From IMG/VR virus record IMGVR_UViG_3300022539_000112, positions 1 through 48,430 of that record: a stretch of DNA of 48,430 nucleotides; one strand, 5' to 3'. Of the stretch, positions 1,517-48,430 are shown in pieces (position 1 is the stretch's first letter; the number at the start of each line of letters is the position of its first letter). The stretch is from a virus. Lineage: Duplodnaviria; Caudoviricetes. Below the pieces are notes generated by a model. The model saw nothing but the letters and a program-made list of their open reading frames with translations. It was not told the origin of the DNA and ran no database searches. A program made the position numbers and the translations under genes.

Positions 1517-1536
1517 GTTAATAGGGTTAACTCAAA

Positions 1537-1888: not shown

Positions 1889-1896
1889 GGAGGAGT

Positions 1897-2130: not shown

Positions 2131-2159
2131 TTTTTAGCTCCTTAAAAAGTTAATATGGG

Positions 2160-2378: not shown

Positions 2379-2408
2379 AATTGGGATCCTTAAAAAGTTA
2401 ATAGGGGG

Positions 2409-2585: not shown

Positions 2586-2660
2586 TTTTTCAAGCTCCTT
2601 AAAAAGTTAATAAAATACATAAGGCAAAGCTCCGTAAAGCCCTGCCCTGCGTATTTTAGG

Positions 2661-2852
2661 CTATTGGGTTTTAGCATGGGCCGCAATAGCTTTTGTGGCT
2701 TCCAGCAATTCTTTAGCTTCCACTTGAATTTCTGTTAATCCTTCCGGGGTAAGCTCGAGCGTTGCAAAGCCGTTACTTCCTGATACGCCACGTTGCGACG
2801 TGATGACAATACTATTGTCGGGATGGTTTGTTGCCCTGATTCTGATTTCCAT
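2661..2852 (-). CDS. hypothetical protein
   Basis: 63-aa ORF preceded by the repeated RBS motif. Confidence 0.75.
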   Translation of the reverse strand: MEIRIRATNHPDNSIVITSQRGVSGSNGFATLELTPEGLTEIQVEAKELLEATKAIAAHAKTQ

Positions 2853-2927
2853 TTTCAGCTCCTTAAAAAGTTAATATAGGTTAAACTCATAGGCCTGCGC
2901 TGTGTTACCAGCGCAGTAATGTGAGCT

Positions 2928-3116
2928 TTAGATGCCCATATCCCGACGCGCTGCTGCTGCTGATGTGCCGCACATATCACGGAGAATCTGGTTCTTTGTT
3001 CTTGCATCTGCATTACGCTGGCACTTTAAGCAAAAAAATCGTCCATGCTTTTTACTGATAGGTGTTCGATGGATGTTACATACTAAAACGCCATTTTCGT
3101 AGTCTGTATCGTACAT
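2928..3116 (-). CDS. small Cys/His-containing hypothetical protein
   Basis: Start MYDTDY at 3116 after AGGAG; CxxH...CxxC. Confidence 0.7.
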   Translation of the reverse strand: MYDTDYENGVLVCNIHRTPISKKHGRFFCLKCQRNADARTKNQILRDMCGTSAAAARRDMGI

Positions 3117-3128
3117 TTTAAGGCTCCT

Positions 3129-3267
3129 AAATAAAGCCCGCCGCGCAAACAAATTACTCGGCTAAAAGAATTGAATGCGCAGGCGGGCGAATAAATGCAG
3201 GTTTGAGTTTGATTGTTTAGCCGAGTAATCATAAAAGTATTATCGACTATTTAGGCCTAAAAGTCAA
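3129..3267 (-). promoter_or_regulatory. promoter, leaderless ATG and attenuator-like hairpin
   Basis: TTGACT-17nt-GATAAT, ATG at 3232; stem 3176-3188/3136-3147 then TTTATTT; loop 3153-3166 perfectly complementary to 3216-3229. Confidence 0.7.
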
Positions 3268-14652: not shown

Positions 14653-15687
14653 ATGAGTACAGCAGATGTTACTAAAGCAACGAGGGAACTTTTCGATAGG
14701 ACTCTCGTTGACCAAGTTAGAATGCGAGTTCCTTTTCTTGAGGCGTTGGAGCGAAATGGCGGCGTAAAGTCAACCTTCAAGGGTGGTAAGTATATCGAGA
14801 AACTTATCGATACTGATACCATTGAATCTCTCGTTCAGGAATACACCGTCAATACAGCGTTGGTTGATGCCAAGAAAACGACTTTGGAGAAACCAAGGTT
14901 TACGTGGAAATACGCTACGCTACCGCTTCGGTACGATGTTGATGAAGAAGTTCAGAACGCCAACGCGGGCAATGAAGAGCAGTTGCTTGACTTGCCGGAA
15001 CATATGGTAACAAAATCCCACAGAGATTTAAGAAAATGGATGGAAGCCAAGATGTTCAATATCGGCAGTGCGACCGGAGTAGCTGACGGCGCTACATCCT
15101 TTCAGTCTTTGGTGTCCGCTCTGGATGTTGACGTTACCTATGGTACGATTACCAGGACGGCGGCGAGTAATATAGCCGACTACTGGCAGGGTGCCGACCC
15201 TTCAGGTTTGTGGTCGGGTATAACGGCGGGAACCCAAGGGACGGCGGTCAATATGACTTGCTCCAATATCCGTAAATGGGTAAACGAAAGTGATATTGCT
15301 CATTATATGGACGGTGCAGACGACCTAATGATTTTGATGTGTCCGACTTTGTGGAACAAGTTAGCTGCCGAGATGGAGTCTAAGCTGATTTACAAGCCTG
15401 GCCTCAAGCAATCTCAGGGTATTCGCAGTATGATTTTCGATAGTCACGAAATCGTCAGCGTTCCTTATCTCCAGACTACCAGCGAAATGAAGGCGTGGGT
15501 TTTTATTCTCAATCTTCGCCACTGGGAATGGAGAATGTGGAACAAGAGAGATTTCAAGTTCACCGGTTTCAAATGGCAGGGTGAAAATTCCAACGGTTAC
15601 GACTACTGGCTTGCCAGAGTTATGATGGTTGGAAACTTCTTCTGTTGGAAACCGAATAGCAGCATGTGGTTAAGCAATGTATCATAA
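14653..15687 (+). CDS. major capsid protein (HK97 fold)
   Basis: 344 aa after scaffold; LVDQV...PFL, GG..I, PRFTWKY pattern. Confidence 0.9.
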   Translation: MSTADVTKATRELFDRTLVDQVRMRVPFLEALERNGGVKSTFKGGKYIEKLIDTDTIESLVQEYTVNTALVDAKKTTLEKPRFTWKYATLPLRYDVDEEVQNANAGNEEQLLDLPEHMVTKSHRDLRKWMEAKMFNIGSATGVADGATSFQSLVSALDVDVTYGTITRTAASNIADYWQGADPSGLWSGITAGTQGTAVNMTCSNIRKWVNESDIAHYMDGADDLMILMCPTLWNKLAAEMESKLIYKPGLKQSQGIRSMIFDSHEIVSVPYLQTTSEMKAWVFILNLRHWEWRMWNKRDFKFTGFKWQGENSNGYDYWLARVMMVGNFFCWKPNSSMWLSNVS

Positions 15688-15701
15688 AGGACTTATGTAA
15701 A

Positions 15702-16139
15702 ATGCAAGAATTACAATTACAGACTAAAGTATGTTCAAGTTGTTGTACAAGAAAGCTGTTTAGTGATTTTTCTAAGCGCAAAGAAACCAAAGATGGTTTG
15801 CATTATGTTTGTAAACAATGTGCAAATGAACGTAGAAGAGAACGTAGAAAACAGCCAGATTATCTAAAAAACGAAACTCTTAAGCGAGATTTTGGTATTT
15901 CTTTGGAAGATTTCAAACAAATGCTTCTTGAACAAAAGGGTGTTTGTGCGATTTGTGGTCAACCGGAAATAGCAACATATAAGGGCAAATTAAGGCACTT
16001 ATCTGTTGACCACGACCATAAAACGGGACAAATACGGAGTTTGTTATGTAACGATTGCAATAGTGCTTTAGGTTTTTTCAAAGACAACATTAAAGTCCTT
16101 AAGAATGCAGCGAAATATTTAACGTTGCACAAGATGTAA
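15702..16139 (+). CDS. endonuclease VII-family (HNH-like) homing endonuclease
   Basis: EQKGVCAICG, LSVDHDHKTGQIRSLLCNDCNSALG; N-terminal Zn finger. Confidence 0.92.
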   Translation: MQELQLQTKVCSSCCTRKLFSDFSKRKETKDGLHYVCKQCANERRRERRKQPDYLKNETLKRDFGISLEDFKQMLLEQKGVCAICGQPEIATYKGKLRHLSVDHDHKTGQIRSLLCNDCNSALGFFKDNIKVLKNAAKYLTLHKM

Positions 16140-16165: not shown

Positions 16166-16840
16166 ATGGCTGGAATAGATGGTAAAAATGTAATAATGAT
16201 TGATTCGTGGCCCGGCCCGGTTGACTACCACATGAGCACTCCCACCAACGGGTTTGACTCTACGAAAGAAGGTAGCGGCAACTGTGTTACCGAGCCACTG
16301 TTTCGACCTGGCCAAAAGATAGCAGCGTATAACGATGCTACGACAAATTCAGGATGGTACACTTGTATCTATCTGAGATTTGTTGAAGGCTCGGATTTAG
16401 CTTACGACGCCGACCCCGATCCCAGTAGTGGTCATGGTTTGGTCTGTCACCTTCAGGATATGACAGAGCACGACCCTGAGACCTTACTTGCATGGTGGAA
16501 TGTTTCTTCGGATACCACGAATACTTGCGGTACGTTAGCTACACCAGTCGCTATGGCGATGCGTACTTTTTGTGGCGGCACAGATAGTACGGCAGGTGGC
16601 AGAAGTCCGGAATATGGTTGGTATTGGTGCGGTGGGGTATGTCCGTGTAATACCTTGAATGCGGCTGGTACAACGGATTACACCAAAACTGGTGGAAACT
16701 ATCCCACTGACGGTTCTGTTGTCATTAACAACTATATGGTTATTCAGGACAACGGCTCAAACTGTCTGAGATTTTCGAATTGGGACGGCACTTTGCCGGA
16801 GAATTTCCCGCAAGCGTGGGCAATGGCCACCGATGCGTAA
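16166..16840 (+). CDS. capsid decoration-like protein, paralog 1
   Basis: Shares DxWPG, GFD, GxKI, GWYWCGGVxP, TDG with the next three genes; strong RBS. Confidence 0.7.
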   Translation: MAGIDGKNVIMIDSWPGPVDYHMSTPTNGFDSTKEGSGNCVTEPLFRPGQKIAAYNDATTNSGWYTCIYLRFVEGSDLAYDADPDPSSGHGLVCHLQDMTEHDPETLLAWWNVSSDTTNTCGTLATPVAMAMRTFCGGTDSTAGGRSPEYGWYWCGGVCPCNTLNAAGTTDYTKTGGNYPTDGSVVINNYMVIQDNGSNCLRFSNWDGTLPENFPQAWAMATDA

Positions 16841-16893
16841 TACTCAGAATGCTGAGTAGAATGTAAATTAACTCTATTTTAAGGAGTACAAAT

Positions 16894-17493
16894 ATGGCAG
16901 CTTTAGGAGCAGAAGAATTTTTCTTGTTCGACACAATGCCAGGGTTAATAAACCCGAATATGAGCAAGCCGGTAAACGGTTTTGACAGTACGCATAGCAA
17001 CAATACTACTACTGCGGTTTATGTGCCTGGTACGAAGATAATGTCTTACCAGGAAGTCAGCACTACGGTTGCAGGCGCTCGCACTGCAAACATAGGGAGT
17101 TATGCTTGCATATATGCAAAGTATGTTTGTTCTACGACTGCACAGGATGTTTCCGCAGGGGACATAATGGTTCAATATTGTGGCAGTGCTGGTGTAAGGC
17201 CATTTGCTGTTACAAGGGAAGTAACCGCAAGTAATGGTAAACAACAGAATGCGTCGTGTGCCATTGCGTGTGCCGATATAACGCCGAATGCCTTTGGTTG
17301 GTATTGGTGTGCTGGTGTTTGTCCACAGACAGACGTAACCGCTTTAGACCAATCCACTTTTGTTACGGACACCTCTGTTGCAGCGGGTGAGGCTATGTGG
17401 ATAACCGTAGGTGCAAGCCACGCAACTTTATCCGGTACTGATGTTGCTGTTTCCGAACTGATAATCGGGAAAGCTTATGCTGATGACGCGTAA
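16894..17493 (+). CDS. capsid decoration-like protein, paralog 2
   Basis: Same motif set. Confidence 0.7.
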   Translation: MAALGAEEFFLFDTMPGLINPNMSKPVNGFDSTHSNNTTTAVYVPGTKIMSYQEVSTTVAGARTANIGSYACIYAKYVCSTTAQDVSAGDIMVQYCGSAGVRPFAVTREVTASNGKQQNASCAIACADITPNAFGWYWCAGVCPQTDVTALDQSTFVTDTSVAAGEAMWITVGASHATLSGTDVAVSELIIGKAYADDA

Positions 17494-17546
17494 TGACACA
17501 TAAGATTGTGTCTTAACAATAATTCTCTTTTTTAAGGAGATTAAAA

Positions 17547-18197
17547 ATGGCTGATATATTTTTACGGGACGTAATTATTTACGACCTTTGGCCAGGTACA
17601 CCAGACCCTAATTTGAGTTGTCCTACTGTTGGTTTTGATGATAGCGCTCAATGCTCGTCAACTCCGGTCTGGCCGTTGGGCACTAAGATTCAGGCATACA
17701 ATGACTCGACTTATGGCCCAGGCTATTACACGATGATTTACCTGCTATATGTCGAGACTTCTGACAATGCCGTCGATATTGGCGACCCATCGACAGGGTA
17801 CAACGCCTGTTTCCACGTTCAGGACGCTTGCGGTAATACGCCAGGCTCGGTAGTAGATTACTGGTACATGGTCACGAATGATGTGTCTAATAGTGATGCT
17901 ACTCAGGGCGGGGCAATAGCTTTTGCCGCCTATGATTTGTCAGGTCTTGCCCCCGATACGGAAACTAACGAATGCGGCTGGTTCTGGTGCGGGGGAGTTA
18001 ATCCTTGTATTACTACAACTGGATTCAAGGATTGTACTCGTCTTGCCGGTGAAATTAGAACTGACGGTTCTGTTCAGCAAGGCGTGTATTTTGGTGTATT
18101 AGGTGACGGAACAGAATGTGCCGCACTTGCGGGTTATGACAATTCAACCAATAACGTAGCTGCAATAGTTGGGTATGCCCTTGTTGCTGACGGTTAA
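17547..18197 (+). CDS. capsid decoration-like protein, paralog 3
   Basis: Same motif set; closest to paralog 4. Confidence 0.7.
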   Translation: MADIFLRDVIIYDLWPGTPDPNLSCPTVGFDDSAQCSSTPVWPLGTKIQAYNDSTYGPGYYTMIYLLYVETSDNAVDIGDPSTGYNACFHVQDACGNTPGSVVDYWYMVTNDVSNSDATQGGAIAFAAYDLSGLAPDTETNECGWFWCGGVNPCITTTGFKDCTRLAGEIRTDGSVQQGVYFGVLGDGTECAALAGYDNSTNNVAAIVGYALVADG

Positions 18198-18212
18198 AGA
18201 AAGGAGTAAATT

Positions 18213-18866
18213 ATGGCGGGTGTATTAAACATGCGGGATGTTATCTTGTTCGACCTTTGGCCAGGCACTCCAGACCCTAATTTGAGTTGCCCTACCGAGG
18301 GATTTGATGCAAGTACGCAGTGTTCGTCAACGCCGGTCTGGCCGTTAGGTACCAAGATTCAGACGTATAATGATTCAACATACGGCCCAGGTTACTTCAC
18401 TATGATTTACCTGCAATTTGTTGAAGCAAGTGGTGCAGCTCAAGACGTTGGCGATATATCGGACGGTTATAACTGTTGTGCCCACGTTCTTGACGTTTGT
18501 GCAAATCTTCCAGGTACGACGGTAGAATACTGGTATATGGTTACGAACTGCCTGACTGATTCTGATGGTACCAAGGGTGCACCGATAGCTTTTCCTGTCT
18601 ATGACTTATCAGGTATGGAAGGCACAACGGGGCAGAACGAATGCGGCTGGTTCTGGTGCGGGGGAGTTAATCCCTGTATCACGACCTCGGCTACTAATAC
18701 TGCTGATTGTACGCGGATGGCTGCTGAAATGCTTACTGACGGCAATATTACCCAAGGTATGCAAATGGCTATTGATGGCGGTGGAGCAACTACGTGTTTT
18801 GCTCCTTATGTTGCAGCGGCAAGTCTCCAAAAAGCAGTTGGACTTGCCCTTGTTGCCGATGTTTAG
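18213..18866 (+). CDS. capsid decoration-like protein, paralog 4
   Basis: Same motif set; 38-nt identity 18636-18673 with 17967-18004. Confidence 0.7.
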   Translation: MAGVLNMRDVILFDLWPGTPDPNLSCPTEGFDASTQCSSTPVWPLGTKIQTYNDSTYGPGYFTMIYLQFVEASGAAQDVGDISDGYNCCAHVLDVCANLPGTTVEYWYMVTNCLTDSDGTKGAPIAFPVYDLSGMEGTTGQNECGWFWCGGVNPCITTSATNTADCTRMAAEMLTDGNITQGMQMAIDGGGATTCFAPYVAAASLQKAVGLALVADV

Positions 18867-19940: not shown

Positions 19941-20220
19941 TTTTGTCTGTGGTTTCGATTGTCCGGTAAAGCCAGGTGGCGGTTTTATTCCAATTTGCTG
20001 CCAAAATTGCAAAAAAGCAAGAAAGTCTTTCGTAACAGATACGAATAAGCATTTATGGGATAAGAACAGAGGATTTCATTCGCCGGAAGGATGCAGATTG
20101 CCGAGAGAAGATATGCCTTTAGAATGCAAAACTTACGATTGCAGGCGTTATAATTTCAAAGTCAAACGTACATGGGCTGGTTGTTGGAGAGATATTTGTG
20201 TCTCTGAAGATAATAGCTGA
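19921..20220 (+). CDS. Cys-cluster protein (YkgJ-like?)
   Basis: CCQNC...GCRL...PLECKTYDC. Confidence 0.5.
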   Translation: MGTPSSDFVCGFDCPVKPGGGFIPICCQNCKKARKSFVTDTNKHLWDKNRGFHSPEGCRLPREDMPLECKTYDCRRYNFKVKRTWAGCWRDICVSEDNS

Positions 20221-21031
20221 TATGGGTGCCGAGCATCAACAGTCCTTTCAAAAGGCTCTAAAGATAGTGTGGGCTGCTGCCGAGGCCGGTGCCGATGCTC
20301 TAAAAATCCAAATGTTCACTCCTAAAGATATGACCTTGGATAGCTTGGATGAGAGATTCGTTATAAAAGAAGAGCAATGGTCGGGGCAGACTTTATATGA
20401 ACTATATGAGAAAACTTGTATGCCTTACGATTGGGTACCGCACTTAAAAGAGCATACCGAGACGAGGGGAATGGAATTTATAGTTACGGTTTTTCACCCC
20501 AGAACCGTCCCTATTGCCGAAAAAATGGGTATTACGACCTATAAAGTGGCCTCATTTGAAATAAATTACTTAAATCTCATAAAAAGTATTGACGGAACGG
20601 ACAAGCCGGTTATAGTAAGTACCGGCTCGGCCACCTATAAGGAAATAGAAGCCGTAGTTAAAATATTGAGAAGGAACTTGACTTTGTTAAAATGCACTTC
20701 AAAGTATCCCGCCCCTATCGAATCAATGAACCTAAAATCCATTCCCGCACTGGAGCATTGCTTTAAGGTTCCTGCAGGTCTATCCGACCACACAACCGGC
20801 ATTGTAGCTCCGGTGGTAGCCGTGAGTTTGGGTGCTACGGTAATCGAAAAGCATATCACTATTGACGGCAAGGGTATGGATGGTTCGTTTGCTATTTTAC
20901 CCGATAGATTTGCCGTTATGGTGCAAGCGATAAGAGAAGCGGAAAAGTCTTTAGGTGAGATAGAATGGGGCGGCGAGCGGTCTTATCATAGACAAGAGAT
21001 AGAAGGCGAAATGGTAAGGGCAGTATGCTAA
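20198..21031 (+). CDS. pseI: nonulosonic acid synthase (NeuB/PseI family), lacking C-terminal SAF domain
   Basis: GADALKIQ, YKVASFEI, KPVIVSTG, LLKCTSKYPAP, GLSDHT, VIEKH. Confidence 0.9.
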   Translation: MSLKIIADMGAEHQQSFQKALKIVWAAAEAGADALKIQMFTPKDMTLDSLDERFVIKEEQWSGQTLYELYEKTCMPYDWVPHLKEHTETRGMEFIVTVFHPRTVPIAEKMGITTYKVASFEINYLNLIKSIDGTDKPVIVSTGSATYKEIEAVVKILRRNLTLLKCTSKYPAPIESMNLKSIPALEHCFKVPAGLSDHTTGIVAPVVAVSLGATVIEKHITIDGKGMDGSFAILPDRFAVMVQAIREAEKSLGEIEWGGERSYHRQEIEGEMVRAVC

Positions 21032-21867
21032 ATAACAAGAAAATCCTAATCACAGGCGGAACAGGTTCGCTTGGTAACGCATTAGTAGGGAAGATATGCA
21101 CAGATTATAAACCTGAAAAGCTCATTATCTTTTCGAGGGACGAGTACAAGCAGAAATTGATGGCTGAGAAGTTTGACTATTATCCTTGTCTGCGGTTCTT
21201 TTTAGGTGATGTCCGTAATGTAACCAGACTTAAAGAAGTATGCAGGGACGTTGATATAGTAATTCACACAGCCGCCTTAAAGCAAATCCCCACGCTTGAG
21301 TACAACCCCACCGAAGCCATAAAGACCAATGTTGATGGTACTGTGAACGTAGTAGAGGCTTGTATCGCTTGTGATGTAGATAGGGCGGTTCTAATATCAA
21401 CGGACAAGGCTGTTAATCCTATAAATCTTTACGGAGCTACGAAGTTATGCGCTGAGAAAGTATTCCTTGCCGCCAATTCGTTTAATAAGACGAAGTTCTC
21501 GGTAGTCAGATATGGCAATGTCTTAAATTCCAGAGGTTCGGTAATTGAGCATTTTCTAAAGTTGAAAGAACAGGGGGCAAAAGAGTTTCCGATAACCGAT
21601 AAGAATATGACGAGGTTTTGGATAACTTTAGAAGATGCCGCAAGTTTAGTTTTAACTTCTTTGAGCAATGGAGAATTGACAATTCCAAAGTTGCCGTCAA
21701 TGAAAATGGTTGATATAGCAAAGGCCATAGACCCAAATTGTGAATTGAAAGTTACAGGTATAAGGCCAGGGGAAAAACTTCACGAATGCTTGAAAGAAGG
21801 TTATACCAGTGACGGTAACGATTGGTGGCTAACACCAGAAGAATTGAGAAGGAAGATAGGAATATGA
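21025..21867 (+). CDS. pseB: UDP-GlcNAc 4,6-dehydratase (inverting) family
   Basis: ITGGTGSLG, FSRDEYKQ, HTAALKQIP, STDKAVNPINLYGATK, RYGNVLNSRGS, MTRFWI, GIRPGEKLHE. Confidence 0.93.
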   Translation: MLNNKKILITGGTGSLGNALVGKICTDYKPEKLIIFSRDEYKQKLMAEKFDYYPCLRFFLGDVRNVTRLKEVCRDVDIVIHTAALKQIPTLEYNPTEAIKTNVDGTVNVVEACIACDVDRAVLISTDKAVNPINLYGATKLCAEKVFLAANSFNKTKFSVVRYGNVLNSRGSVIEHFLKLKEQGAKEFPITDKNMTRFWITLEDAASLVLTSLSNGELTIPKLPSMKMVDIAKAIDPNCELKVTGIRPGEKLHECLKEGYTSDGNDWWLTPEELRRKIGI

Positions 21868-21980
21868 AGATATGGTTGTTTGCAATATTATTTGGATTGT
21901 TCGGCTCTGTATTGACGGTATGTATTTGTTTAGGCGTGATGTATGGTATTGAATGGTTAGGGAGTAAAATACACAAATGA
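21864..21980 (+). CDS. small membrane peptide (38 aa)
   Basis: ATGA overlap with pseB; single hydrophobic helix. Confidence 0.5.
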   Translation: MKIWLFAILFGLFGSVLTVCICLGVMYGIEWLGSKIHK

Positions 21981-21996
21981 TATCCAAAGGAGCAAA

Positions 21997-23259
21997 ATGT
22001 CTAACTGGCTAAAAACACTTGAAGTAATCCCCGATGGCGTTCAGACTCTTTCTAAGATGCCATCGAAGCACGTTGACGGAATATACCCAAAGTACATTAC
22101 TAAAGGCGATGGCGCCTACGTCTGGGGCGAAGACGATAAGAAATATATCGACTATCCCTGCGGACTCGGCGCCATCCTTTTGGGTTACAATAATCCGATA
22201 GTAAACAGGGCGATTATCGACCAGCTGAATAAGGGTGTTTTATTCTCACTTTCAAATTATCTTGAAACAGAATTAGCAGAAAAGATAGTTGATATTGTCC
22301 CATCCGCCGAACGAGTCAGATTCTTAAAGACGGGCAGTGAGGCTACTTCGGCTGCGGTCAAGATTGCCCGTGCCTATACCGGCAAGGAAGGGATAATCTG
22401 TATTGGTTATCACGGTTGGCACGATTGGTATAGTTTTACGACTACCAAGAACAAAGGAGTTCCCCAACAGCCAGTAGTCCAATGCAAGTACAATGATATT
22501 GATGCTATCATAGAGGCTTTCGATTATCAAAATAAAGAAACTGTCGGCATAGCTGCGGTCATTATGGAACCATACATTCTCGAAGAGCCGAAACAGGAAT
22601 ATTTACGCAAGGTCAGGAAGTTATGTGATCGTCACAATGCAGTATTGATATTCGATGAGATAATAACCGGCTTTCGTACTCTCGAATGGACTGCCCAAAA
22701 ATACTTCGATATAACGCCGGACTTAACCTGTCTGGGCAAGGCAATGGCTAATGGATTGCCAATTTCCGTTGTATGTGGCAAGAAAGAGCTAATGAAAGAG
22801 TTACAAGGTGACTGTTTTGTGTCTTCGACTTTCGGCGGGGAATTACTTTCGATTGCTGCTGCTCTTGCGACTATTAAAATAGTCGAGGAGCAAGGGGTTA
22901 TCAGGCAGATATGGGAGATGGGCGGTAGGTTCGTAGAAAGTTTTAAGATGATGGTCGGCACAATGAATCTAATTGATGGCGTTAGTATCATAGGGTATCC
23001 ACCTCGGACATTCTTTAAGTTTGAAACCGAAGCCCATAAGTCATTATTCTGGCAGGAATGCCTTAAAAAAGGAGTGTTATTTGGTTATGCCCAATTTATT
23101 AACTGGTCACACGGATTAGGTGAAATAGACCAAACTGTAATGGCAATGAGACACGCTTTAGGTATGGTCAGAAAATACTGGGAACATCCGATGGATGCTA
23201 TGGAAGGCCAAGTGGCGCAGGAAACTTTCAGATTAGTATGTGAGAAGGAGAAAAAATGA
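21997..23259 (+). CDS. class III PLP aminotransferase (glutamate-1-semialdehyde aminomutase-like)
   Basis: KTGSEAT, YHGWHDW, LIFDEIITGFR, PDLTCLGKAMANG. Confidence 0.92.
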   Translation: MSNWLKTLEVIPDGVQTLSKMPSKHVDGIYPKYITKGDGAYVWGEDDKKYIDYPCGLGAILLGYNNPIVNRAIIDQLNKGVLFSLSNYLETELAEKIVDIVPSAERVRFLKTGSEATSAAVKIARAYTGKEGIICIGYHGWHDWYSFTTTKNKGVPQQPVVQCKYNDIDAIIEAFDYQNKETVGIAAVIMEPYILEEPKQEYLRKVRKLCDRHNAVLIFDEIITGFRTLEWTAQKYFDITPDLTCLGKAMANGLPISVVCGKKELMKELQGDCFVSSTFGGELLSIAAALATIKIVEEQGVIRQIWEMGGRFVESFKMMVGTMNLIDGVSIIGYPPRTFFKFETEAHKSLFWQECLKKGVLFGYAQFINWSHGLGEIDQTVMAMRHALGMVRKYWEHPMDAMEGQVAQETFRLVCEKEKK

Positions 23260-23495
23260 AGTTACTTAAAAAGAAAATAGATAAATATAATTGTAAATGG
23301 AATAAGCCTGATGAAAGTGCTCCATGGGAATATCAAGAATGTCATTGTCCCGATAAATCATACGGATTTGTTGATACTCCAAATTTTTCAATGCCAATGA
23401 TATTTGATGTTTCCTGTGACCATCAAGCAAATTCTGGCCCCAGAAGTGGATTAGATTGTCCATATTTTGAAGAGGAAGAGAAGGAGAAAAATTGA
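23256..23495 (+). CDS. Cys-containing hypothetical protein
   Basis: Coupled ORF flanked by a 14-bp direct repeat. Confidence 0.65.
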   Translation: MKLLKKKIDKYNCKWNKPDESAPWEYQECHCPDKSYGFVDTPNFSMPMIFDVSCDHQANSGPRSGLDCPYFEEEEKEKN

Positions 23496-24103
23496 AACTT
23501 GAACCTCTTACTTTAGGACAATGTGAACAAGTACGTCTTTGGCGTAATGCCGAGATGGAAGTATGGCGTACACCATTTATGCTCACAGAGGAAATGCAGG
23601 TGGATTTCTACCAAAGATGCTGTGACCGAAATTCCCCGCATAGGTATTGGGCGATAGTTGCTGAAGAAGAAAAAGGAATAGATAGTCCAGAAAGTATTGC
23701 TGAAAGACAAGCCAAGTTTCTTATTAGACCTATTGGTTTTATCGGCATGGGTGGCATAACCTATATCCAATGGGAGAACCGAATAGGCGAGATAACTTTG
23801 ATAATAAATCCAGCATATCGGGATAAGCATTATGGCGAAGAAACAGTAGATTTACTCCTTGACCAAGCCTTCAATCATCTGAATCTCCAGACGGTTTTCG
23901 GAGAGGCATATATGTGCAATCCTTGGTGGGAATTTTGGAAGAAAGTGACACGTAAATATATTTATGAAGGCATAAGGGAAAAAGTTGGAACAGGTTGGGT
24001 AAATTTACCTAATCGTAAATATTGGCAAGGTCAATATTATTCAAGCTTATATTTTAGTATAGACAAAGATGACTTCAATAATAGTAACAAACAGGAACAG
24101 TAA
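23492..24103 (+). CDS. GNAT N-acetyltransferase (PseH/RimJ-like)
   Basis: VRLWRN, IGMGGITYIQWENRIGEI, AFNHLNL. Confidence 0.85.
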   Translation: MKLEPLTLGQCEQVRLWRNAEMEVWRTPFMLTEEMQVDFYQRCCDRNSPHRYWAIVAEEEKGIDSPESIAERQAKFLIRPIGFIGMGGITYIQWENRIGEITLIINPAYRDKHYGEETVDLLLDQAFNHLNLQTVFGEAYMCNPWWEFWKKVTRKYIYEGIREKVGTGWVNLPNRKYWQGQYYSSLYFSIDKDDFNNSNKQEQ

Positions 24104-24581
24104 CGGCGATATAACCAAGCGTGAAGATTTCACACCGGAGAAGTTGTTTCTTCTTAACGCTCTGGATTATATCTTCATACCTTTTTGGTCGTGGTATATC
24201 CCCGCCGAAATATACGAGAATTGGGAAGTAGTCATTTTTCACTGCACGGACTTGCCTTATGGACGGGGGGGCAGTCCGTTGCAGAATCTCATAGTTAGAG
24301 GCCACAAAGATACTAAGATAAGTGCTATTCGTTGCATTAAAGAAATTGATGCAGGTCCTATCTATATGCAGAGATATTTGCATATCGGTAAAGGAACGGC
24401 GAATGAAATATACGATAGAGCAGACAAGATAATACGAGAAGAAATGATACCTATTATTCTTAATATGAAACCCGAACCGAGACCACAGGTAGGCGAGCCG
24501 GTTTACTTTGATAAATGGGATTGTTCAACGGAAGATGTTATAAGAGCAGTAGCTACTGATTACGAGAGGGACAAAGGATGA
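24069..24581 (+). CDS. sugar N-formyltransferase (Fmt-like)
   Basis: FHCTDLPYGRGGSPLQNLI, IDAGPIY. Confidence 0.9.
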   Translation: MTSIIVTNRNSNGDITKREDFTPEKLFLLNALDYIFIPFWSWYIPAEIYENWEVVIFHCTDLPYGRGGSPLQNLIVRGHKDTKISAIRCIKEIDAGPIYMQRYLHIGKGTANEIYDRADKIIREEMIPIILNMKPEPRPQVGEPVYFDKWDCSTEDVIRAVATDYERDKG

Positions 24582-25360
24582 AGCTTGAAGAACTAACAGC
24601 TTTGTATAGTCCTCTTGATATTGAATATGCCCAGGCTATGTCCGGCCCTTACGAGGATTTATCTTTTAGGTCTGACGAAGTAACGGTTATAGCGGGGTTG
24701 AAAGACGGCAGGATTAGTGGTTTCTGGCGTCCTGTAGTCGCTGTGGGCGACGATAAGCTCCAAAAGCTACATATAGAGTGTCTTTACGATATATGCCGTA
24801 ATATCTACTATATGGACTTTCTAATAGACGGCAAGTTATCGGTGATAAGTCAGTTTCTTTTAAGGCACGGCCATAAGGCAAGGCCATATTATACGCAGAT
24901 TATAGATACGTCTAAAGACCCGGTTATTCTCCATATTGAGTTACGTAAAAGTTACAAGAGTTTAGTTAAGAAATATATGAATATAGAATATGGAGATATA
25001 AATGATTATAGATATTATCACGTTCGTACAACTAAGGAAAGGTGTGAGAAAAGTTGGGAAATCCAAGAGGAGATGATTTCAGACGGAGAAGCTGTGTGTA
25101 TGATAGATGGCGAGAATGCAGCGATACTAATATACAATAACGAATATTCTGCTTATTACGCAGGCGGTAAATCTACGACAGGTTTCAATACCCACGCTCT
25201 TATCTGGCAAGCAATCATAAGGAATAAGGGTAATATGTTTGAAATGGGCGAGCAAATATTTTCCAGTGACGAAAAACTCGTAAACATAAGCAAGTTCAAA
25301 CGTGGGTTTGGCGGTATGACCCAAACCCGACTAATTTTAGAGAAGGAGCAAAATGGCTAA
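24578..25360 (+). CDS. FemAB-like GNAT-fold acyl/aminoacyl transferase
   Basis: LRKSYKSLV, HALIWQAI, ISKFKRGFGG. Confidence 0.75.
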   Translation: MKLEELTALYSPLDIEYAQAMSGPYEDLSFRSDEVTVIAGLKDGRISGFWRPVVAVGDDKLQKLHIECLYDICRNIYYMDFLIDGKLSVISQFLLRHGHKARPYYTQIIDTSKDPVILHIELRKSYKSLVKKYMNIEYGDINDYRYYHVRTTKERCEKSWEIQEEMISDGEAVCMIDGENAAILIYNNEYSAYYAGGKSTTGFNTHALIWQAIIRNKGNMFEMGEQIFSSDEKLVNISKFKRGFGGMTQTRLILEKEQNG

Positions 25361-26726
25361 AAAGAAGGTAGCAAATAAAACTGTAGTACCGAAAAAGAAA
25401 ATCCTTATTCTTACCGCAAGCCCAAGGCGGGACATTCTGATAGACGAGCTTCTATCCGATGAGTTGCGGAAATTAGGTAACGATGTATGGGTTGCGCCCT
25501 GTTTACGTGAAGGCAGGGACAAGACTTTAGAGATTGAGCCTGATGTCGTACTCCTTCCGCCTATACGGAATATGTATAGCAGGGACTTTGCCGAGATGTT
25601 GAAAAGATGGGGCGTGGGTGTAGTTACGAGACATACCGAGCCAAGTTGCGATTGGGCTGATTTCAAAAGAATGGACGATAGGCAAAAGGCTGAGATATGG
25701 GGCAATATGCCGTACATAGCCGACTTGGAAATAGTCTGGGGCGATGATGAAGTTCAGATACTTGCCAAGAGGGGGTGTAGATTTCCGGTTCACGCGGTTG
25801 GTTCGTTTGCGACTGACATATATCTTAATCCCCGCTTCAAGAAAATATTCAAGCATCGAGATAAGTTCAACCAAAAATACAAGTTTGAGAAGTCCAAAAA
25901 AACGATATTGGTACAATCACCTTGGGGTTTTGCCGACCATTCGCCCGATTTGAGGATAGACGAGATAGACGAATTCAAAGAGGACATCGCCGGTAGGGAC
26001 AGGCATTTGGGTATGGTGGAACAATTACACAAGGCATTGGGCGATAAGTACAATATTCTCGTTACTACCCACCCAGGCGTTATTACTGAACCTTATAAGG
26101 AACGCCTTGATAAGCTGAAGATACCTCTTGATGTTGAATCTACGTCTTTGAAAATGATGTATAATTCGGATATTCTTATTCACGCCGGTTCGACTATGGC
26201 GGTTGGAGCGCATCTTCTCGGTATGCCAGCCTTCCAATTCGGCGATGCAAATGTAAAAGAATCTAAGAATTGGTGGAGCGACCATAACAAGATAATGTCG
26301 GAAATATCACCAATACTTGAGGTAAACTATTTAATTGAGAATATACGGAAAGCTTATTCTTTATCAAACGCCAACCTCAAAACTATCGAAGCTCTCGAAA
26401 AAGGCCGTTATGGCAAGATGGACGGCAAGGCTTACGAGAGGGCTGCGGTCTTAATAAATAAGGTTCAAGGCCATTTCAAGATGTGCTGGCCAAAGACACA
26501 TCGAGATTATAACCAGCTTACCATTGTCAAGTATCCACACCAGATATTGAATAGCGTGGTTTGTGGGATATGCAAAGAGCAATTCCAAGCAGTCAGCAAG
26601 GATTGGATTGATAAACTCTTAGTCAATATCGGCAAGGAGCACACTAACGACTTAAAACCGAAGTTCGGTACGTGCTGTCCTCATTGCGGCTCTAAGTTTA
26701 TCATGGGTAAGGGGATGATGATATGA
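25353..26726 (+). CDS. surface carbohydrate biosynthesis protein, putative GT-B glycosyltransferase
   Basis: ASPRRD, HTEP, VWG, THPG, LIHAGST pattern; C-terminal Zn ribbon. Confidence 0.65.
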   Translation: MAKKKVANKTVVPKKKILILTASPRRDILIDELLSDELRKLGNDVWVAPCLREGRDKTLEIEPDVVLLPPIRNMYSRDFAEMLKRWGVGVVTRHTEPSCDWADFKRMDDRQKAEIWGNMPYIADLEIVWGDDEVQILAKRGCRFPVHAVGSFATDIYLNPRFKKIFKHRDKFNQKYKFEKSKKTILVQSPWGFADHSPDLRIDEIDEFKEDIAGRDRHLGMVEQLHKALGDKYNILVTTHPGVITEPYKERLDKLKIPLDVESTSLKMMYNSDILIHAGSTMAVGAHLLGMPAFQFGDANVKESKNWWSDHNKIMSEISPILEVNYLIENIRKAYSLSNANLKTIEALEKGRYGKMDGKAYERAAVLINKVQGHFKMCWPKTHRDYNQLTIVKYPHQILNSVVCGICKEQFQAVSKDWIDKLLVNIGKEHTNDLKPKFGTCCPHCGSKFIMGKGMMI

Positions 26727-27355
26727 AGAGTAAAATCATAGACGCCGAAAAAGGTATTGTAGAGGTAACGCCAAAACGGAAAAAGGTAGCTATAATCGGT
26801 TGTGGTGCAGGTAGGGACAATGCTCCTTATGACGATAAGGAATGGGAATGTTGGGGCTTGAACGAAGTTGACCAGAAACGTGCCGATAGATGGTTTGAGA
26901 TACACGAGCTATATGCTTCAAGCGAAAAAGAAGTTGAATGGCTTAAAAAATGCAAGCAACCGATATATATGATAAAAGTATATCCCGAAATACCAATGTC
27001 GGTGTCTTATCCTCTGGTTGAAGTTACGATAGGAATGGGTAGTCCTACGTATTTCACTTGCACCTTTGCTTACCAAATAGCTCTTGCTATCTATGAAAAA
27101 TTTGAGGTAATTGGTATGTTCGGCGTGAACTTGCCTTATGGCTCGCCAAGAGAAAGACTTATAGAAACGCCCTGTACTGAATTTTGGCTTGGCGTAGCGG
27201 CTGGAATGGGTATAGAGATTCAGATTCCACCGGACGAATATCTTTTGCATCATCAGTATTTATACGGATACGAATATCAAGAGGAAATAGATTATACTAA
27301 GAAAAAAGTAGCTGCTATGTGGGGCAGAATGCAGACCGATTTGTACTTAAAATGA
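26723..27355 (+). CDS. Maf/DUF115-like, sialyltransferase-fold candidate transferase
   Basis: VAIIGCG...WGLN...DRWFEIH...AYQIALAIY...IGMFGVN. Confidence 0.6.
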   Translation: MKSKIIDAEKGIVEVTPKRKKVAIIGCGAGRDNAPYDDKEWECWGLNEVDQKRADRWFEIHELYASSEKEVEWLKKCKQPIYMIKVYPEIPMSVSYPLVEVTIGMGSPTYFTCTFAYQIALAIYEKFEVIGMFGVNLPYGSPRERLIETPCTEFWLGVAAGMGIEIQIPPDEYLLHHQYLYGYEYQEEIDYTKKKVAAMWGRMQTDLYLK

Positions 27356-28002
27356 AAACAGTTGTAGCGATAATTCAAGCCAGATTAGGTAGTACGAGAT
27401 TGCCGAACAAGGTACTCTTAAAGATACCGCCCGATAGCAATATAACCTGTTTGGGTAGGGTTATAGAAAGGCTCAAGAATTGTACGTTACTGGATGAGAT
27501 TATTTTAACTACGCCTGATAAAGAATTGTGTAAAATAGCTAAAAGTTACGGAATTATAAGCCGGAGATATTATGGCAAACGAGATGTTTTACGGGAATAT
27601 CGTGAAGTAATACGGGACTTTTCAGATGCCAATATTATTGTCAGGATTACTGCCGATTGCCCATTGATAGACCCTGATATAGTTGACCAGTGTATAGATG
27701 AATTTCTTGACAGTAATGTAGATTTAGTCTATAACACTGATGAGAGCAATGGTCAGTTAAATGGCGAAGGTAGTGATGTAGAAGTTTTTTCATCTCAAGC
27801 TCTCAGATGGACTTCTTTTGAAGCCAAAACGCCTTCTGACAGAGAACATATAACAAGGTATATGAGACGGACAATGAATACTAAATATGTACCTATGAAA
27901 AAGTTAGGAATCAAGAGTTTGAATACTTGGGAAGATTACCAAGATATTTGCAGGATATACGAAAATGAAGGTACTCATTGTAGCAGCCCATCCAGACGAT
28001 GA
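27352..28002 (+). CDS. cytidylyltransferase (SpsF/PseF/NeuA-like)
   Basis: IIQARLGSTRLPNKVL, VRITADCPLIDP, DREHIT; ATGA overlap start. Confidence 0.9.
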   Translation: MKTVVAIIQARLGSTRLPNKVLLKIPPDSNITCLGRVIERLKNCTLLDEIILTTPDKELCKIAKSYGIISRRYYGKRDVLREYREVIRDFSDANIIVRITADCPLIDPDIVDQCIDEFLDSNVDLVYNTDESNGQLNGEGSDVEVFSSQALRWTSFEAKTPSDREHITRYMRRTMNTKYVPMKKLGIKSLNTWEDYQDICRIYENEGTHCSSPSRR

Positions 28003-28531
28003 AGTTCTTGGATGTGGCGGGACAACTGAACGATTGAAAAGAGAAGGCCACGAAGTTAAAGTAACTTGGCTTGGTGCTGGTAGAGGTAGCGAATTTGATA
28101 ATCAATTTGACACGAATCTACTATTGTATTGGGTAGAAATTGTTGAAAAGCATATTGAAAGTTGTAAGCCCGAAATTATCTTTACCCATTACGAAAAAGA
28201 CCTAAACATAGACCATCGAATAACTTATCAAGCGGTAATAACAGCAGCAAGACCAGAACCGGATTGTTGCGTAAAAGAGATATATTCTTTTGAGATACCA
28301 AGTTCTACCGAATGGGCTTTTCCAACAAGTTTTTCGCCGAACGTATTTTATGATATAACAGACTATATTTCGATAAAAGAAAAGACGCTTATGGCACATT
28401 ATAAGGACGAGATGCGAGAATATCCTCATCCACGTTCCCAAGTTGGAGTCGATGTTTTAGCTGCCTATCGTGGTACGCAATGTGGTGTCAGATATGCTGA
28501 AGCCTTCAAAACAGTGAGACGAATTTTATGA
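27965..28531 (+). CDS. PIG-L/LmbE family deacetylase
   Basis: AAHPDDEVLGCGGT, DLNIDH, YPHPRS, AEAF. Confidence 0.92.
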   Translation: MKVLIVAAHPDDEVLGCGGTTERLKREGHEVKVTWLGAGRGSEFDNQFDTNLLLYWVEIVEKHIESCKPEIIFTHYEKDLNIDHRITYQAVITAARPEPDCCVKEIYSFEIPSSTEWAFPTSFSPNVFYDITDYISIKEKTLMAHYKDEMREYPHPRSQVGVDVLAAYRGTQCGVRYAEAFKTVRRIL

Positions 28532-43608: not shown

Positions 43609-44091
43609 ATGGACTGGAGCGAATTTCCTAAGTCAACATTTTATCACCAAGAGCCCTTAAAGGAGAATGATATGGAATGTCCCTGTCGTAAATTACCAAA
43701 AGAGCAATGGTGTGACCATAGCGGCAAGGGTGGTTTTATGGGGCATACTTGCGTAAAGAAGAACTTGCCAGAGCAGAATCCAGTCGGATATTGTAGGAGC
43801 ATAATAACAGATAAGGAAATTGTAAAAAGCATAAAATTAGTCAAAGACAAAATCGAAATGAGATTGCGACAAAAACATCGAGGTTCATACATAAGCAATC
43901 ACGAGACTTTCGGCATTTTAGCTGAAGAATTTCATAAAGAGCTTTTGGATGCTCTCAAAGCAAATGATAATGAAGAATTTTTTACTGAGCTTATAGATAT
44001 TGCTGTTGGTGCTATTTTGGGAATGGCGAGTATGTATGCTAATGCCAAGCAAGCCCTTGAGGACAAAAATGCAAAAAAAACAATGCAGTAA
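43609..44091 (+). CDS. MazG-like all-alpha NTP pyrophosphohydrolase domain protein
   Basis: HETFGILAEEFHKELL...FTELIDIAV. Confidence 0.65.
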   Translation: MDWSEFPKSTFYHQEPLKENDMECPCRKLPKEQWCDHSGKGGFMGHTCVKKNLPEQNPVGYCRSIITDKEIVKSIKLVKDKIEMRLRQKHRGSYISNHETFGILAEEFHKELLDALKANDNEEFFTELIDIAVGAILGMASMYANAKQALEDKNAKKTMQ

Positions 44092-44476
44092 GTGTAAGCA
44101 AATAAAATCTATATTTGAGTTCTCCAAACACCATAAACACGGTTATCAGTATTGGTGCAAAGAATGTAAGCGAAAAAATGACTATAAAAATTCAGCCAAA
44201 GGTAAAGCTGTCCATAAACGACATAGACAAACTAAAAAATACAAAGCAAGGCACAAAAGATACTTGATACGCCATCCCGAATATAAAACAGCCAGAAATG
44301 CTGTAAGTAACGCAATTATAGCGGGGAAATTATCTCGCCCTAATATTTTCCATTGTCCTTGTGGCAAACAAGCTGAGCAATATCATCATCATTTGGGATA
44401 TGCGCCAGAGCATCGGCTTGATGTAATTCCAGTATGCTGTAAATGTCATTATAAATACAATAAAAAAATAGCTTAG
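44069..44476 (+). CDS. HNH-type endonuclease
   Basis: N-terminal CSKC..CKEC Zn finger, YHHHLGY...VIPVCCKCH; start after GAGGA. Confidence 0.8.
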   Translation: MQKKQCSKCKQIKSIFEFSKHHKHGYQYWCKECKRKNDYKNSAKGKAVHKRHRQTKKYKARHKRYLIRHPEYKTARNAVSNAIIAGKLSRPNIFHCPCGKQAEQYHHHLGYAPEHRLDVIPVCCKCHYKYNKKIA

Positions 44477-47201: not shown

Positions 47202-47337
47202 GATATATTACCACCACTATTGTTACGATTGCTGTTGTTGGTACGTCAGCGACAAGCGCCACGCCCGCTGCTGGTCTTGCAATTCAGAGAATACGATAAA
47301 TTGTTTTCGGGAAAAATACGATGAATCAATGGCATAA
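47188..47337 (+). CDS. small zinc-ribbon protein (49 aa)
   Basis: CYDC...CWSCNSEN; overlaps both neighbours. Confidence 0.5.
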   Translation: MQENKIYYHHYCYDCCCWYVSDKRHARCWSCNSENTINCFREKYDESMA

Positions 47338-48430
47338 TTGCTACGATGAAGGCTGGCAAGGGATAATAGTCCCGGAAGCCTTCAGTCACCCGGCGAAGAT
47401 GGCCTATGGCCTCTTAAAGCGTATCCTTGCCCACATCAAGATACAGGGCTGGCTCGAGGAAGGGGACGTTATAGTTGACCCCTTCGGCGGTATCGGCTCT
47501 ACGGGCATCCTGGGGGCTTATGAGGGGTATCAGTGTGTGATGGTAGAGTTGGAGTCTAAGTTTGTTGAATTGGCTCGGCAGAATTTTGAGCTTCATTGCA
47601 ACGCTTGGGCAAAGTTTAATAATCCTATGCCCGCGATGTTACAGGGCGATTCCCGCCAATTATGCCAAATCGTAGAAAAGGCCGACTGCATTGTTAAAAA
47701 AGACTTGACAAATACAAATAAGTGCTGTAACATAAGTGAAAAACAGGAGAACACTTATGAAAACAGTAAAAGAGAGACAATTAGCAGGAATAATGCGGAT
47801 AAGCAAATTGGCAAAGCAAAAATGGGCAAAACGCAAAGCCGAAATCAAGTTTCTGTATTACGAGATGGACATGAGCCAAGAACAAATAGCTCTATATTAC
47901 AAGACGACACAACAGGCGATACAACAAGTAATGAAGAAATTAAGTCTGAAAGTGCTGTCAAGGGGCAGGCGAAAGGGCAAACATCATCACAACTTTATAC
48001 ACGGCAAAAGCAGTCGGTTATATCGAATGGTGATAGAAAAGGACAAATGCCGTCGATGCGGGGTAACGGAAAATCTGGGGATTCACCACAAAAACGACGA
48101 CCATTACGACCATCGGCTGGAAAATCTGGAAATCTTATGCAATCCTTGTCACATGAGCATAACCAAAAAGAAATGGTGGGCGGCAAAGAAAGCGGGGATT
48201 CCAACGCCAAAGAGCAATGCACCAATGGGATGGAAGCGGTAGCAGATATAATAATCTCAAGCCCGCCGTACGCAGAAGGACTTGGACATGGTGGTAAGCC
48301 AACAAGAAAAGCAGGTCGTACAGATGACGCTAATTTGGATGCTATGCAGAATGGTTATGGCCAAACTTCTGGAAATCTCGGCAATCTCAAGTCCGGCGAT
48401 GTCGATGCAATTATTAGCTCGCCGCCGTAT
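47321..48430 (+). CDS. amino (N4-C/N6-A) DNA methyltransferase, 3'-truncated by window, with in-frame insert
   Basis: Hand translation open for 370 codons: HPAKM, VDPFGGIGST (motif I), VELE, QGDSR, two IISSPPY (motif IV); absent from ORF track because there is no stop. Confidence 0.88.
   Translation, partial: MNQWHNCYDEGWQGIIVPEAFSHPAKMAYGLLKRILAHIKIQGWLEEGDVIVDPFGGIGSTGILGAYEGYQCVMVELESKFVELARQNFELHCNAWAKFNNPMPAMLQGDSRQLCQIVEKADCIVKKDLTNTNKCCNISEKQENTYENSKRETISRNNADKQIGKAKMGKTQSRNQVSVLRDGHEPRTNSSILQDDTTGDTTSNEEIKSESAVKGQAKGQTSSQLYTRQKQSVISNGDRKGQMPSMRGNGKSGDSPQKRRPLRPSAGKSGNLMQSLSHEHNQKEMVGGKESGDSNAKEQCTNGMEAVADIIISSPPYAEGLGHGGKPTRKAGRTDDANLDAMQNGYGQTSGNLGNLKSGDVDAIISSPPY
47705..47749 (+). 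promoter_or_regulatory. internal promoter and RBS for nested HNH gene
   Basis: TTGACA-17nt-TAACAT with TG just upstream; AGGAG 7 nt before ATG 47757. Confidence 0.7.
47757..48242 (+). CDS. HNH homing endonuclease nested in +1 frame within the methyltransferase gene
   Basis: HTH-like SQEQIALYY, CRRCG...IHHKNDDHYDHRLENLEILCNPCH. Confidence 0.9.
   Translation: MKTVKERQLAGIMRISKLAKQKWAKRKAEIKFLYYEMDMSQEQIALYYKTTQQAIQQVMKKLSLKVLSRGRRKGKHHHNFIHGKSSRLYRMVIEKDKCRRCGVTENLGIHHKNDDHYDHRLENLEILCNPCHMSITKKKWWAAKKAGIPTPKSNAPMGWKR

What the first reader, a model, noticed from the sequence alone, without database searches (positions are those of the whole stretch)
47321..48271. HNH endonuclease gene hidden inside a methyltransferase gene that stays open in the other frame
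Seen: the MTase frame from ATG 47321 has no stop to the window end. Between ...KADCIV (47681-47695) and ADIIISSPPY (from 48242) lie 182 extra hydrophilic codons. The same DNA carries a TTGACA-17-TAACAT promoter, an AGGAG RBS and a complete 161-aa HNH gene in the +1 frame, whose TAG ends exactly where conserved MTase sequence resumes. About 8 stops would be expected at 3/64 per codon. No intein C-terminal HN-C/S/T and no room for an intron core is visible. Inference: a homing element that spares its host gene by dual-frame coding, as a tolerated disordered loop, instead of splicing. ADCIV/ADIII may be a duplicated target site.
Basis: partly seen in the sequence, partly recalled or inferred. Interest (0 to 1): 0.88.

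Follow-up and report, generated by a model that had tools for sequence, protein, structure and literature searches.

The report
Hidden HNH gene inside phage methylase
A selfish DNA-cutting gene with its own promoter sits in a shifted reading frame inside a phage DNA-methylase gene, and selection keeps the methylase frame free of stop codons so the enzyme is apparently translated straight through it; this trick was first published in 2025, and this is a distinct, widespread family that aims at the enzyme's catalytic motif.

Summary
A 561-nt cassette (promoter, RBS, 161-aa HTH-HNH gene in the +1 frame) sits inside a phage N4/N6 DNA-methyltransferase gene, just before the SPPY catalytic motif. 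The host frame stays open by selection: 0 stops against about 14 expected here, and 0 of 712 possible across 25 nested relatives. Six non-nested relatives carry 66 of 230.

Empty alleles read ADCIV-SSPP. Carriers are scattered over the host tree, occupy different tandem SPPY repeats, and one has a sister allele identical up to the site but empty. This fits homing. No intron or intein signal was found. A model of a complete carrier loops the insert out as disorder and uses the element's own replacement beta-strand.

The layout is published (ShiLan 'hidden HNH', Arsenault 2025), and this scan has noted at least eight similar cases on other DNA. New here: the nuclease family, the motif-IV target, strand replacement, an internal promoter with a probable start-blocking hairpin, and related elements that instead restart the host gene downstream. 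Methylase activity, cleavage and lack of splicing are inferred, not tested.

The parts
47321..47695 (+). 5' part of a circularly permuted N4/N6-type DNA methyltransferase (HPAK motif X, DPFGGIG motif I, ELE motif II, GDSR motif III), ending in the native strand ADCIV (47681-47695)
   Evidence: PF01555 E=2.5e-8; 120 homologues listed, up to 81% identical; empty alleles read ADCIV-SSPP; motif numbering is recalled nomenclature
47696..48256 (+). Inserted mobile cassette, 561 nt = 187 host-frame codons with no stop; hydrophilic, predicted disordered in the host frame
   Evidence: the host-frame product matches no PHROG or NCBIfam family; pLDDT <50 over most of the equivalent insert in P0036
47705..47733 (+). 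sigma70-type promoter TTGACA-17-TAACAT for the HNH gene, read as KKDLTN...CCNI in the host frame
   Evidence: TTGACA is invariant in the window, L085 and L164; function not tested
47732..47758 (+). Inverted repeat ATAAGTG (47732-38; second copy 47718-24) / CACTTAT (47752-58): a predicted hairpin that covers the HNH start codon on read-through mRNA and cannot form on mRNA from the internal promoter
   Evidence: -13.0 kcal/mol, 0 of 200 shuffles of the 5' part fold as well; the paired-fraction measure was not significant (38 of 200)
47745..47749 (+). Shine-Dalgarno AGGAG, 7 nt before the HNH ATG
47757..48242 (+). 161-aa HTH-HNH endonuclease gene in the +1 frame (HTH about residues 27-61; C98, C101, H110, H111, N123, C128, C131, H132)
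   Evidence: 13 PHROG matches, 11 of them HNH families, best E=1.9e-10; Pfam HNH only weak, E=0.046; invariant residues in alignment A1; model pLDDT 88.8
48242..48256 (+). Replacement beta-strand ADIII carried by the element, placed before motif IV
   Evidence: in the P0036 model the 3' copy is a strand (E287-292) and the 5' copy is not
48257..48430 (+). 3' part of the MTase: SSPPY motif IV (SPPY at 48260), one variable repeat unit, second SPPY at 48419; cut off by the contig end
   Evidence: complete homologues have 1-7 such repeats and a conserved C-terminal domain

Best explanation
A splice-free, dual-coded homing element. SHOWN: a promoter-RBS-HTH-HNH cassette lies at the DNA that encodes strand beta4 and motif IV of amino-methyltransferases; the host frame is kept free of stops; carriers and empty alleles intermingle on the host tree. 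INFERRED: (1) The HNH nicks or cuts the uninterrupted motif-IV sequence of an empty allele, and repair copies the cassette in; the insertion breaks the site, which protects carriers. (2) The host ribosome reads straight through. Because the cassette ends with its own copy of beta4, the catalytic SPPY keeps its strand, and about 180 residues loop out from the far end of that strand as a disordered linker. This host family already loops out variable repeats at this place. (3) The HNH is translated from its own promoter; on the long methylase mRNA a hairpin covers its start, as for T4-type homing endonucleases.
For: Stop avoidance in the window and in relatives: 0 of 712 at-risk positions in 25 nested loci against 487 of 1913 elsewhere (about 185 expected); 66 of 230 in 6 non-nested relatives. 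21 of the 25 have DPPY/SPPY in the host frame beside the HNH stop, against 0 of the 6. Host-frame Tyr, Trp, Cys and Phe codons are also under-used (9, 12, 22, 25% against 34, 31, 41, 42%) while Ser and Leu are not. Sequence is conserved in the HNH frame, not the host frame (57-63% against 26-42% for the five closest). Ten carriers need 10 changes on the host tree (shuffled mean 9.7; at least 6 forced by strong branches), and each is nearest to an empty allele. P0111 and P0110 are identical at 153 of 156 residues up to the site. The same cassette sits at repeat 1, 2, 3 or 4. P0036 and P0074 have their only SPPY after the insert and a complete C-terminal domain. Model of P0036: core pLDDT about 95, insert below 50, 3' strand used. 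No Rfam match, no intein family.
Against: No experiment and no RNA data. The window's gene is cut off, so its own C-terminus is unseen, and the model is of a homologue. 3 of the 25 nested hosts (L007, L010, L101) have lost their C-terminal half yet remain open, so an open frame can be inherited. The nested class was first defined by having zero stops, and the loci are related, so the pooled count is not independent. The window's HNH has His119 where at least 90% of close relatives have Asn, so this copy may be weakened. Avoidance of Tyr, Trp and Cys may partly reflect their closeness to stop codons. The hairpin rests on 3 loci, is absent in L084, and one of two measures was not significant. 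Repeated precise loss could mimic part of the patchiness.
Confidence: 0.8

Rival explanations
1. The insert is translated but then removed or clipped at the protein level by an unrecognised autoproteolytic or host protease step, so the active enzyme lacks the loop or works as two associated halves.
For: It would also select for an open frame; the loop is predicted disordered and so exposed to proteases.
Against: No intein family matches. Host-frame residues are not conserved beyond the HNH's shadow. Junction residues vary between carriers. Precise excision would not need a replacement strand.
Confidence: 0.08
2. Genes-in-pieces: the C-terminal half restarts at an internal codon (for example ATG 48230) and assembles with the N-terminal half; the open frame is incidental.
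For: An in-frame ATG lies at 48230. Relatives L013, L093 and L094 do restart a duplicated methylase downstream of the HNH.
Against: The N-terminal half has no stop. The ATG is a by-product of the HNH's Gly-Trp codons and is missing in L003 and P0010. The restarting relatives accumulate 7-24 stops in the same frame, whereas nested ones have none.
Confidence: 0.05
3. The cassette is an unrecognised intron, or is skipped by ribosomal bypass.
For: HNH genes commonly ride in group I introns (recalled; also PMC11855218, section 3.5).
Against: Only 61 nt precede the ATG and 14 nt follow the stop. Rfam gives 0 matches up to E=10. The ends fold no better than shuffles (z -1.0 and +0.7). Splicing or bypass would lift the selection against stops, which is strong.
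Confidence: 0.04
4. The methylase is dispensable and inactivated by the insert; the open frame is inherited from a recent ancestor or serves to avoid transcriptional polarity.
For: Three nested hosts are C-terminally broken. Orphan phage methylases can be non-essential (PMC11855218, section 4.1).
Against: The frame stays open across HNHs only 34-68% identical to the window's, with about 57% of third positions changed between pairs. The replacement strand and the C-terminal motifs are kept in most carriers.
Confidence: 0.05

Closest known systems
ShiLan domain and Pacc40 gp60 insertion: out-of-frame 'hidden' HNH in mycobacteriophage DNA methylases (Arsenault, Gosselin, Gogarten 2025, PMC11855218, whole text read; Gosselin 2023, PMC9957025, passages only)
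   Same: Insertion of about 200 codons in a phage PF01555 methylase (ShiLan gp65); host frame without stops; HNH in a shifted frame ending at the 3' junction; no intein or intron signal; the ends of the insert resemble each other; patchy distribution; free-standing relatives upstream of methylases.
   Different: Different nuclease (HTH-HNH against Zn finger-HNH-Zn finger; blastp E=0.14 over 19 aa). +1 frame, not +2. Site at motif IV, not near the C-terminal part. Permuted SPPY-repeat host with no similarity to gp65 beyond an 18-residue motif-IV match (E=0.029). Own sigma70 promoter and RBS, where the paper finds no RBS and reports no promoter. The paper gives no test of stop avoidance.
Hairpin-regulated T-even homing endonucleases (I-TevI/II/III, segB, Aeh1 mobE; review PMC2988022, passages only)
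   Same: An internal promoter is placed so that an RBS-blocking hairpin forms only on read-through transcripts; the target is a functionally critical coding sequence.
   Different: Those lie in self-splicing introns, stand free, or split the host gene (Aeh1 nrdA: title seen in the reference list, the rest recalled). Here the host frame runs through the nuclease gene, and the promoter is sigma70-like rather than a T4 late promoter.
Inteins and group I introns with homing endonucleases
   Same: Site-specific spread into conserved catalytic motifs while sparing the host gene.
   Different: No splicing apparatus; the insert is predicted to stay in the protein.

Membership tests
Hidden out-of-frame HNH insertions (ShiLan-like class) | Insertion inside a phage DNA methylase, absent from homologues | tested here: met
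   PF01555; 96 of 110 scorable homologues have 17-21 residues from GDS to SPP against 206 here; terminase- and capsid-like ORFs in a record labelled virus
Hidden out-of-frame HNH insertions (ShiLan-like class) | No stop in the host frame | tested here: met
Hidden out-of-frame HNH insertions (ShiLan-like class) | Complete HNH ORF in an alternate frame, ending at the 3' junction | tested here: met
Hidden out-of-frame HNH insertions (ShiLan-like class) | No intein or intron signature | tested here: met
Hidden out-of-frame HNH insertions (ShiLan-like class) | Patchy distribution on the host tree | tested here: met
Hidden out-of-frame HNH insertions (ShiLan-like class) | Host protein keeps the insert and stays active; HNH cuts the empty allele | not testable with these tools
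   Needs expression and cleavage assays; also untested in PMC11855218
ShiLan domain proper | Homologous HNH, third frame, same site in the gp65 family | tested here: not met
   blastp E=0.14, profile score 13.5 bits, +2 frame, other site; no ShiLan-type phage among the 20 listed of 21 tblastn records
Intein | Hint domain, N-terminal C/S, C-terminal HN followed by C/S/T | tested here: not met
   No Pfam, PHROG or NCBIfam match for the host-frame insert; it starts KKDL and ends DIII
Group I / group II intron | Catalytic RNA core and canonical ends | tested here: not met
   Rfam 0 matches at E<=10; 75 nt outside the ORF in all
Genes-in-pieces (Aeh1 nrdA/mobE type) | 5' piece ends in a stop and 3' piece has its own start | tested here: not met
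   No stop; internal ATG not conserved
N4/N6 DNA methyltransferase (PF01555) | Motifs X, I-IV and amino-MTase fold | tested here: met
   Pfam above cut-off; Foldseek of the P0036 model: Trm11 E=1.3e-5, TTHA0409 E=1.3e-4
N4/N6 DNA methyltransferase (PF01555) | DNA substrate and target base (N4-C suggested by SPPY; recalled) | not testable with these tools
   The top fold match is a tRNA methylase with the same motif order, so the substrate is inferred

The most novel reading that the evidence does not exclude
One nuclease family aims at the DNA of motif IV in amino-methylases and spares its host in two ways without splicing: read-through with a self-supplied replacement strand, or restart of a duplicated gene head. 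The tandem SPPY repeats of this host family are themselves a product of, or a defence against, repeated invasion (spare catalytic motifs and decoy targets; decayed in-frame remnants in P0111 and P0116), so the parasite shaped the enzyme's architecture and perhaps its specificity.
Probability: 0.15. Interest if true: 0.72.

Novelty: new variant of a known kind. Interest (0 to 1): 0.45.

Why it matters
It backs, with numbers the original paper lacked, a third way for homing endonucleases to spare a host gene: overlap coding instead of RNA or protein splicing. It supplies a structural rule (replace the strand so the insert leaves from the far side of the catalytic motif), an expression route (own promoter, with an RBS or a leaderless start), and matched full and empty alleles (P0111/P0110, P0036/P0040) that make read-through, activity and homing directly testable. 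In practice, such genes are missed by annotation, and long 'disordered' inserts in phage methylases should be read in other frames.

Tried and rejected

No RNA holder was listed, so expression and splicing could not be examined. Small-share runs are not used as evidence of habitat.

The fold search of the HNH model gave no match at E<=0.001, only weak HNH and HTH rows. tblastn of an empty host protein against cultured phages gave no match. The promoter-junction DNA pattern in viral contigs gave 80 loci with DNA (of at least 120 matches): 1 weak HNH hit and no methylase, so it added nothing. A search of 401 genomes of the class of G001 found only G001. A regex scan of 71 viral host loci (68 parsed) found no carrier of this cassette and one other nested HNH, L194; the HNH profile was not run on them.

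Exact target-site duplication was rejected (7 of 15 bases). The hairpin is not seen in L084, and the paired-fraction test was not significant in any of 4 loci.

Five literature searches found the ShiLan papers and a genome announcement mentioning such an element (PMC12613952, listing only), but no description of this HTH-HNH family or of the SPPY-repeat host; paywalled papers are not covered, and no supplements or the paper's repository were read. Earlier scan notes held no look-alike by sequence or place. No complex prediction was run.

Full report
OBSERVATION. The window is one 48,430-base virus record with terminase-, portal- and capsid-like ORFs (those labels are my reading, Pfam gave no match). 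From ATG 47321 one frame is open to the contig end. Its first 125 residues match the N6_N4_Mtase family (E=2.5e-8). After KADCIV (47681-47695) come 182 hydrophilic codons, then ADIIISSPPY from 48242. The +1 frame holds ATG 47757-TAG 48242, a 161-aa protein with a helix-turn-helix and an HNH core (11 PHROG HNH families, best E=1.9e-10; C98, C101, N123, C128, C131 and H132 invariant among 38 aligned sequences). TTGACA-17-TAACAT (47705-47733) and AGGAG (47745) precede it. The start of the contig does not continue the gene.

NOT CHANCE. A host-frame stop arises when an HNH codon ending in T precedes one that starts AA, AG or GA. The window has 33 such opportunities and uses none, against 21 of 74 elsewhere. 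Recoding with the phage's codon usage gives 14.3 stops on average and never zero in 100,000 trials; shuffling the gene's own synonymous codons gives zero in 9 of 100,000. A contig of run X1 (perhaps the source sample) reproduces 47256-48403 exactly, and a contig from another study carries the insert with 76 differences in 589 bases.

EMPTY ALLELES AND THE TRUE BOUNDARY. Of 120 listed host homologues, 110 could be scored; 96 have 17-21 residues from GDS to the first SPP, and the closest read KADCIVSSPP. So ADCIV is native, the insert runs 47696-48256 (561 nt), and ADIII comes with the element. The two match at only 7 of 15 bases, and other carriers end VSLII, VSLIC, LQAVI, VACIV or LDGVL. It is a functional replacement of the beta-strand before motif IV, not a target-site duplication. 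The host family is a permuted amino-methylase (motifs X-I-II-III, then IV; numbering recalled) with 1-7 tandem SPPY modules. Its model is nearest to Trm11 and to the DNA methylase TTHA0409. DNA as substrate, and N4-cytosine as target, are inferred.

THE FAMILY. HNH searches gave 35 loci including the window with profile score of at least 140, out of 173 examined; 31 remain after removing near-copies at 90%. Twenty-five have no stop in the frame that corresponds to the host: 0 of 712 opportunities, against 487 of 1913 elsewhere. Six have 3-24 stops (66 of 230). Judged independently, 21 of the 25 have DPPY or SPPY in that frame next to the HNH stop and none of the six do. Five of the 25 hosts belong to the SPPY-repeat family; the other 20 are classical beta-type N6/N4 methylases or their remnants. 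Substitutions pile up at HNH third positions, and identity is higher in the HNH frame (57-63%) than in the host frame (26-42%) for the five closest relatives. The host-frame text is therefore a shadow of the HNH, constrained against stops and apparently against aromatics (Tyr 9% against 34%, Trp 12 against 31, Cys 22 against 41, Phe 25 against 42; Ser and Leu unchanged). Caveats: the loci are related, Tyr, Trp and Cys codons neighbour stop codons, and three nested hosts (L007, L010, L101) have lost their C-terminal half. Among the six non-nested members, L013, L093 and L094 show a truncated methylase head, a TTGACA promoter, the HNH, and then a fresh duplicate start of the methylase; L105 shows the head only, and L087 the downstream methylase only. 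This is a second splice-free solution, possible where motif IV lies near the N-terminus.

MOBILITY. A profile of the host-frame shadow finds 9 of 120 host homologues, 6 strongly; P0036 is among them by construction. The cassette occupies repeat 1 (window, P0036, P0074, L003), repeat 2 (P0010, P0024, P0102, P0111), repeat 3 (P0099) or repeat 4 (L164), always just before SSPP. On a tree of 110 N-terminal domains (13 rows with other inserts or a different order dropped; quick search, few columns), 10 carriers need 10 changes, as in shuffles (9.7); strong branches force at least 6, and each carrier's nearest sequence is empty. P0111 and P0110 are identical at 153 of 156 residues and part exactly at the site. 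Homing is the simplest reading; the tree cannot tell gain from loss.

STRUCTURE. An AlphaFold model of P0036, a complete carrier whose only SPPY follows the insert, has pLDDT about 95 for both halves of the enzyme and below 50 for residues 122-172 and 178-281. The 3' copy (287-292) forms a strand and the 5' copy does not. The insert thus leaves from the end of beta4 away from the catalytic motif (the position of the motif at the strand's C-terminal end is established knowledge). This is a prediction, made on a homologue.

EXPRESSION. TTGACA is invariant in the window, L085 and L164. In all three, a different sequence inside the promoter pairs with the RBS or start codon: folding energy is matched by 0, 14 and 7 of 200 shuffles of the upstream part, and the hairpin vanishes from the predicted transcription start; the paired-fraction measure was not significant, and L084 shows no such hairpin. 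This resembles the control of T4-type homing endonucleases (PMC2988022, passages). In beta-type hosts, 14 of 17 hand-picked starts have a -10-like hexamer 5-8 nt upstream (shuffled mean 1.2, maximum 5) and 16 of 17 lack an SD match, which suggests leaderless mRNA.

SPLICING RIVALS. There is no Rfam match up to E=10, only 75 nt lie outside the ORF, the ends fold unremarkably, and no intein family matches. Selection against stops argues against removal at the RNA level. No RNA run was listed, so this remains indirect.

COMPARISON. Arsenault, Gosselin and Gogarten 2025 (PMC11855218; whole text read; supplements and repository not seen) describe the same layout in mycobacteriophage methylases and propose a tolerated loop. 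ShiLan gp65 is also PF01555, but its HNH is in the +2 frame, has another architecture, is barely alignable (E=0.14) and lies at another site. The element works like the ShiLan domain and belongs to the broad class, but it is not the ShiLan domain. Five literature searches found no account of this family. Eight earlier notes of this scan report similar nested HNH or GIY-YIG genes in other genomes (unchecked), none alike in sequence.

VERDICT. Real, selected and mobile; a new variant of a kind published in 2023-2025. Interest 0.45.

Noticed in passing
window 20198-28531: Sugar-modification cluster in the phage: NeuB, PseB-like dehydratase, class III aminotransferase, GNAT, cytidylyltransferase, PIG-L; looks like a pseudaminic/legionaminic-type pathway, perhaps for virion or DNA decoration.
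   Followed up: partly
window 15666-16139: Endonuclease VII-type gene (PF02945) directly after the probable major capsid gene.
   Followed up: partly
window 44000-44476: Basic Zn-finger, HNH-like ORF with no Pfam match.
   Followed up: partly
window 1500-3200: Run of short minus-strand genes, several preceded by the same AT-rich leader with an AAGGAG RBS; may be an early host-takeover region.
   Followed up: no
window 16166-18866: Four tandem paralogous genes of about 200-220 aa that begin with a shared D-x-WPG-like motif, after the capsid gene.
   Followed up: no
P0060, P0066, P0072, P0088, P0092; L194: A second insert in the same methylase family between motifs II and III; in L194 it holds a nested +1 HNH of another type, and host-frame Cys motifs flank it and could clasp the loop. 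Shorter Cys-rich inserts at this place occur in P0053, P0076, P0087, P0101, P0106, P0120, P0121.
   Followed up: partly
L018, L022, L057, L119, L122, L128, L136, L139, L142; L157: More distant HNHs nested out of frame in open C5-methylase-like genes, and one nested inside an intein-like insert of an AAA protein (host labels read from motifs).
   Followed up: no
L087, L093, L094, just downstream of the HNH stop: The restarted methylase carries a 5-9 nt insertion with a stop codon at or just after SPP(Y); unexplained (target immunity, recoding, or a data artefact).
   Followed up: no
L210; L092; P0151: In-frame HNH between SPPY repeats (L210); carrier methylase fused behind a UvrD-like helicase (L092); HNH fused in frame to a methylase (P0151).
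   Followed up: no
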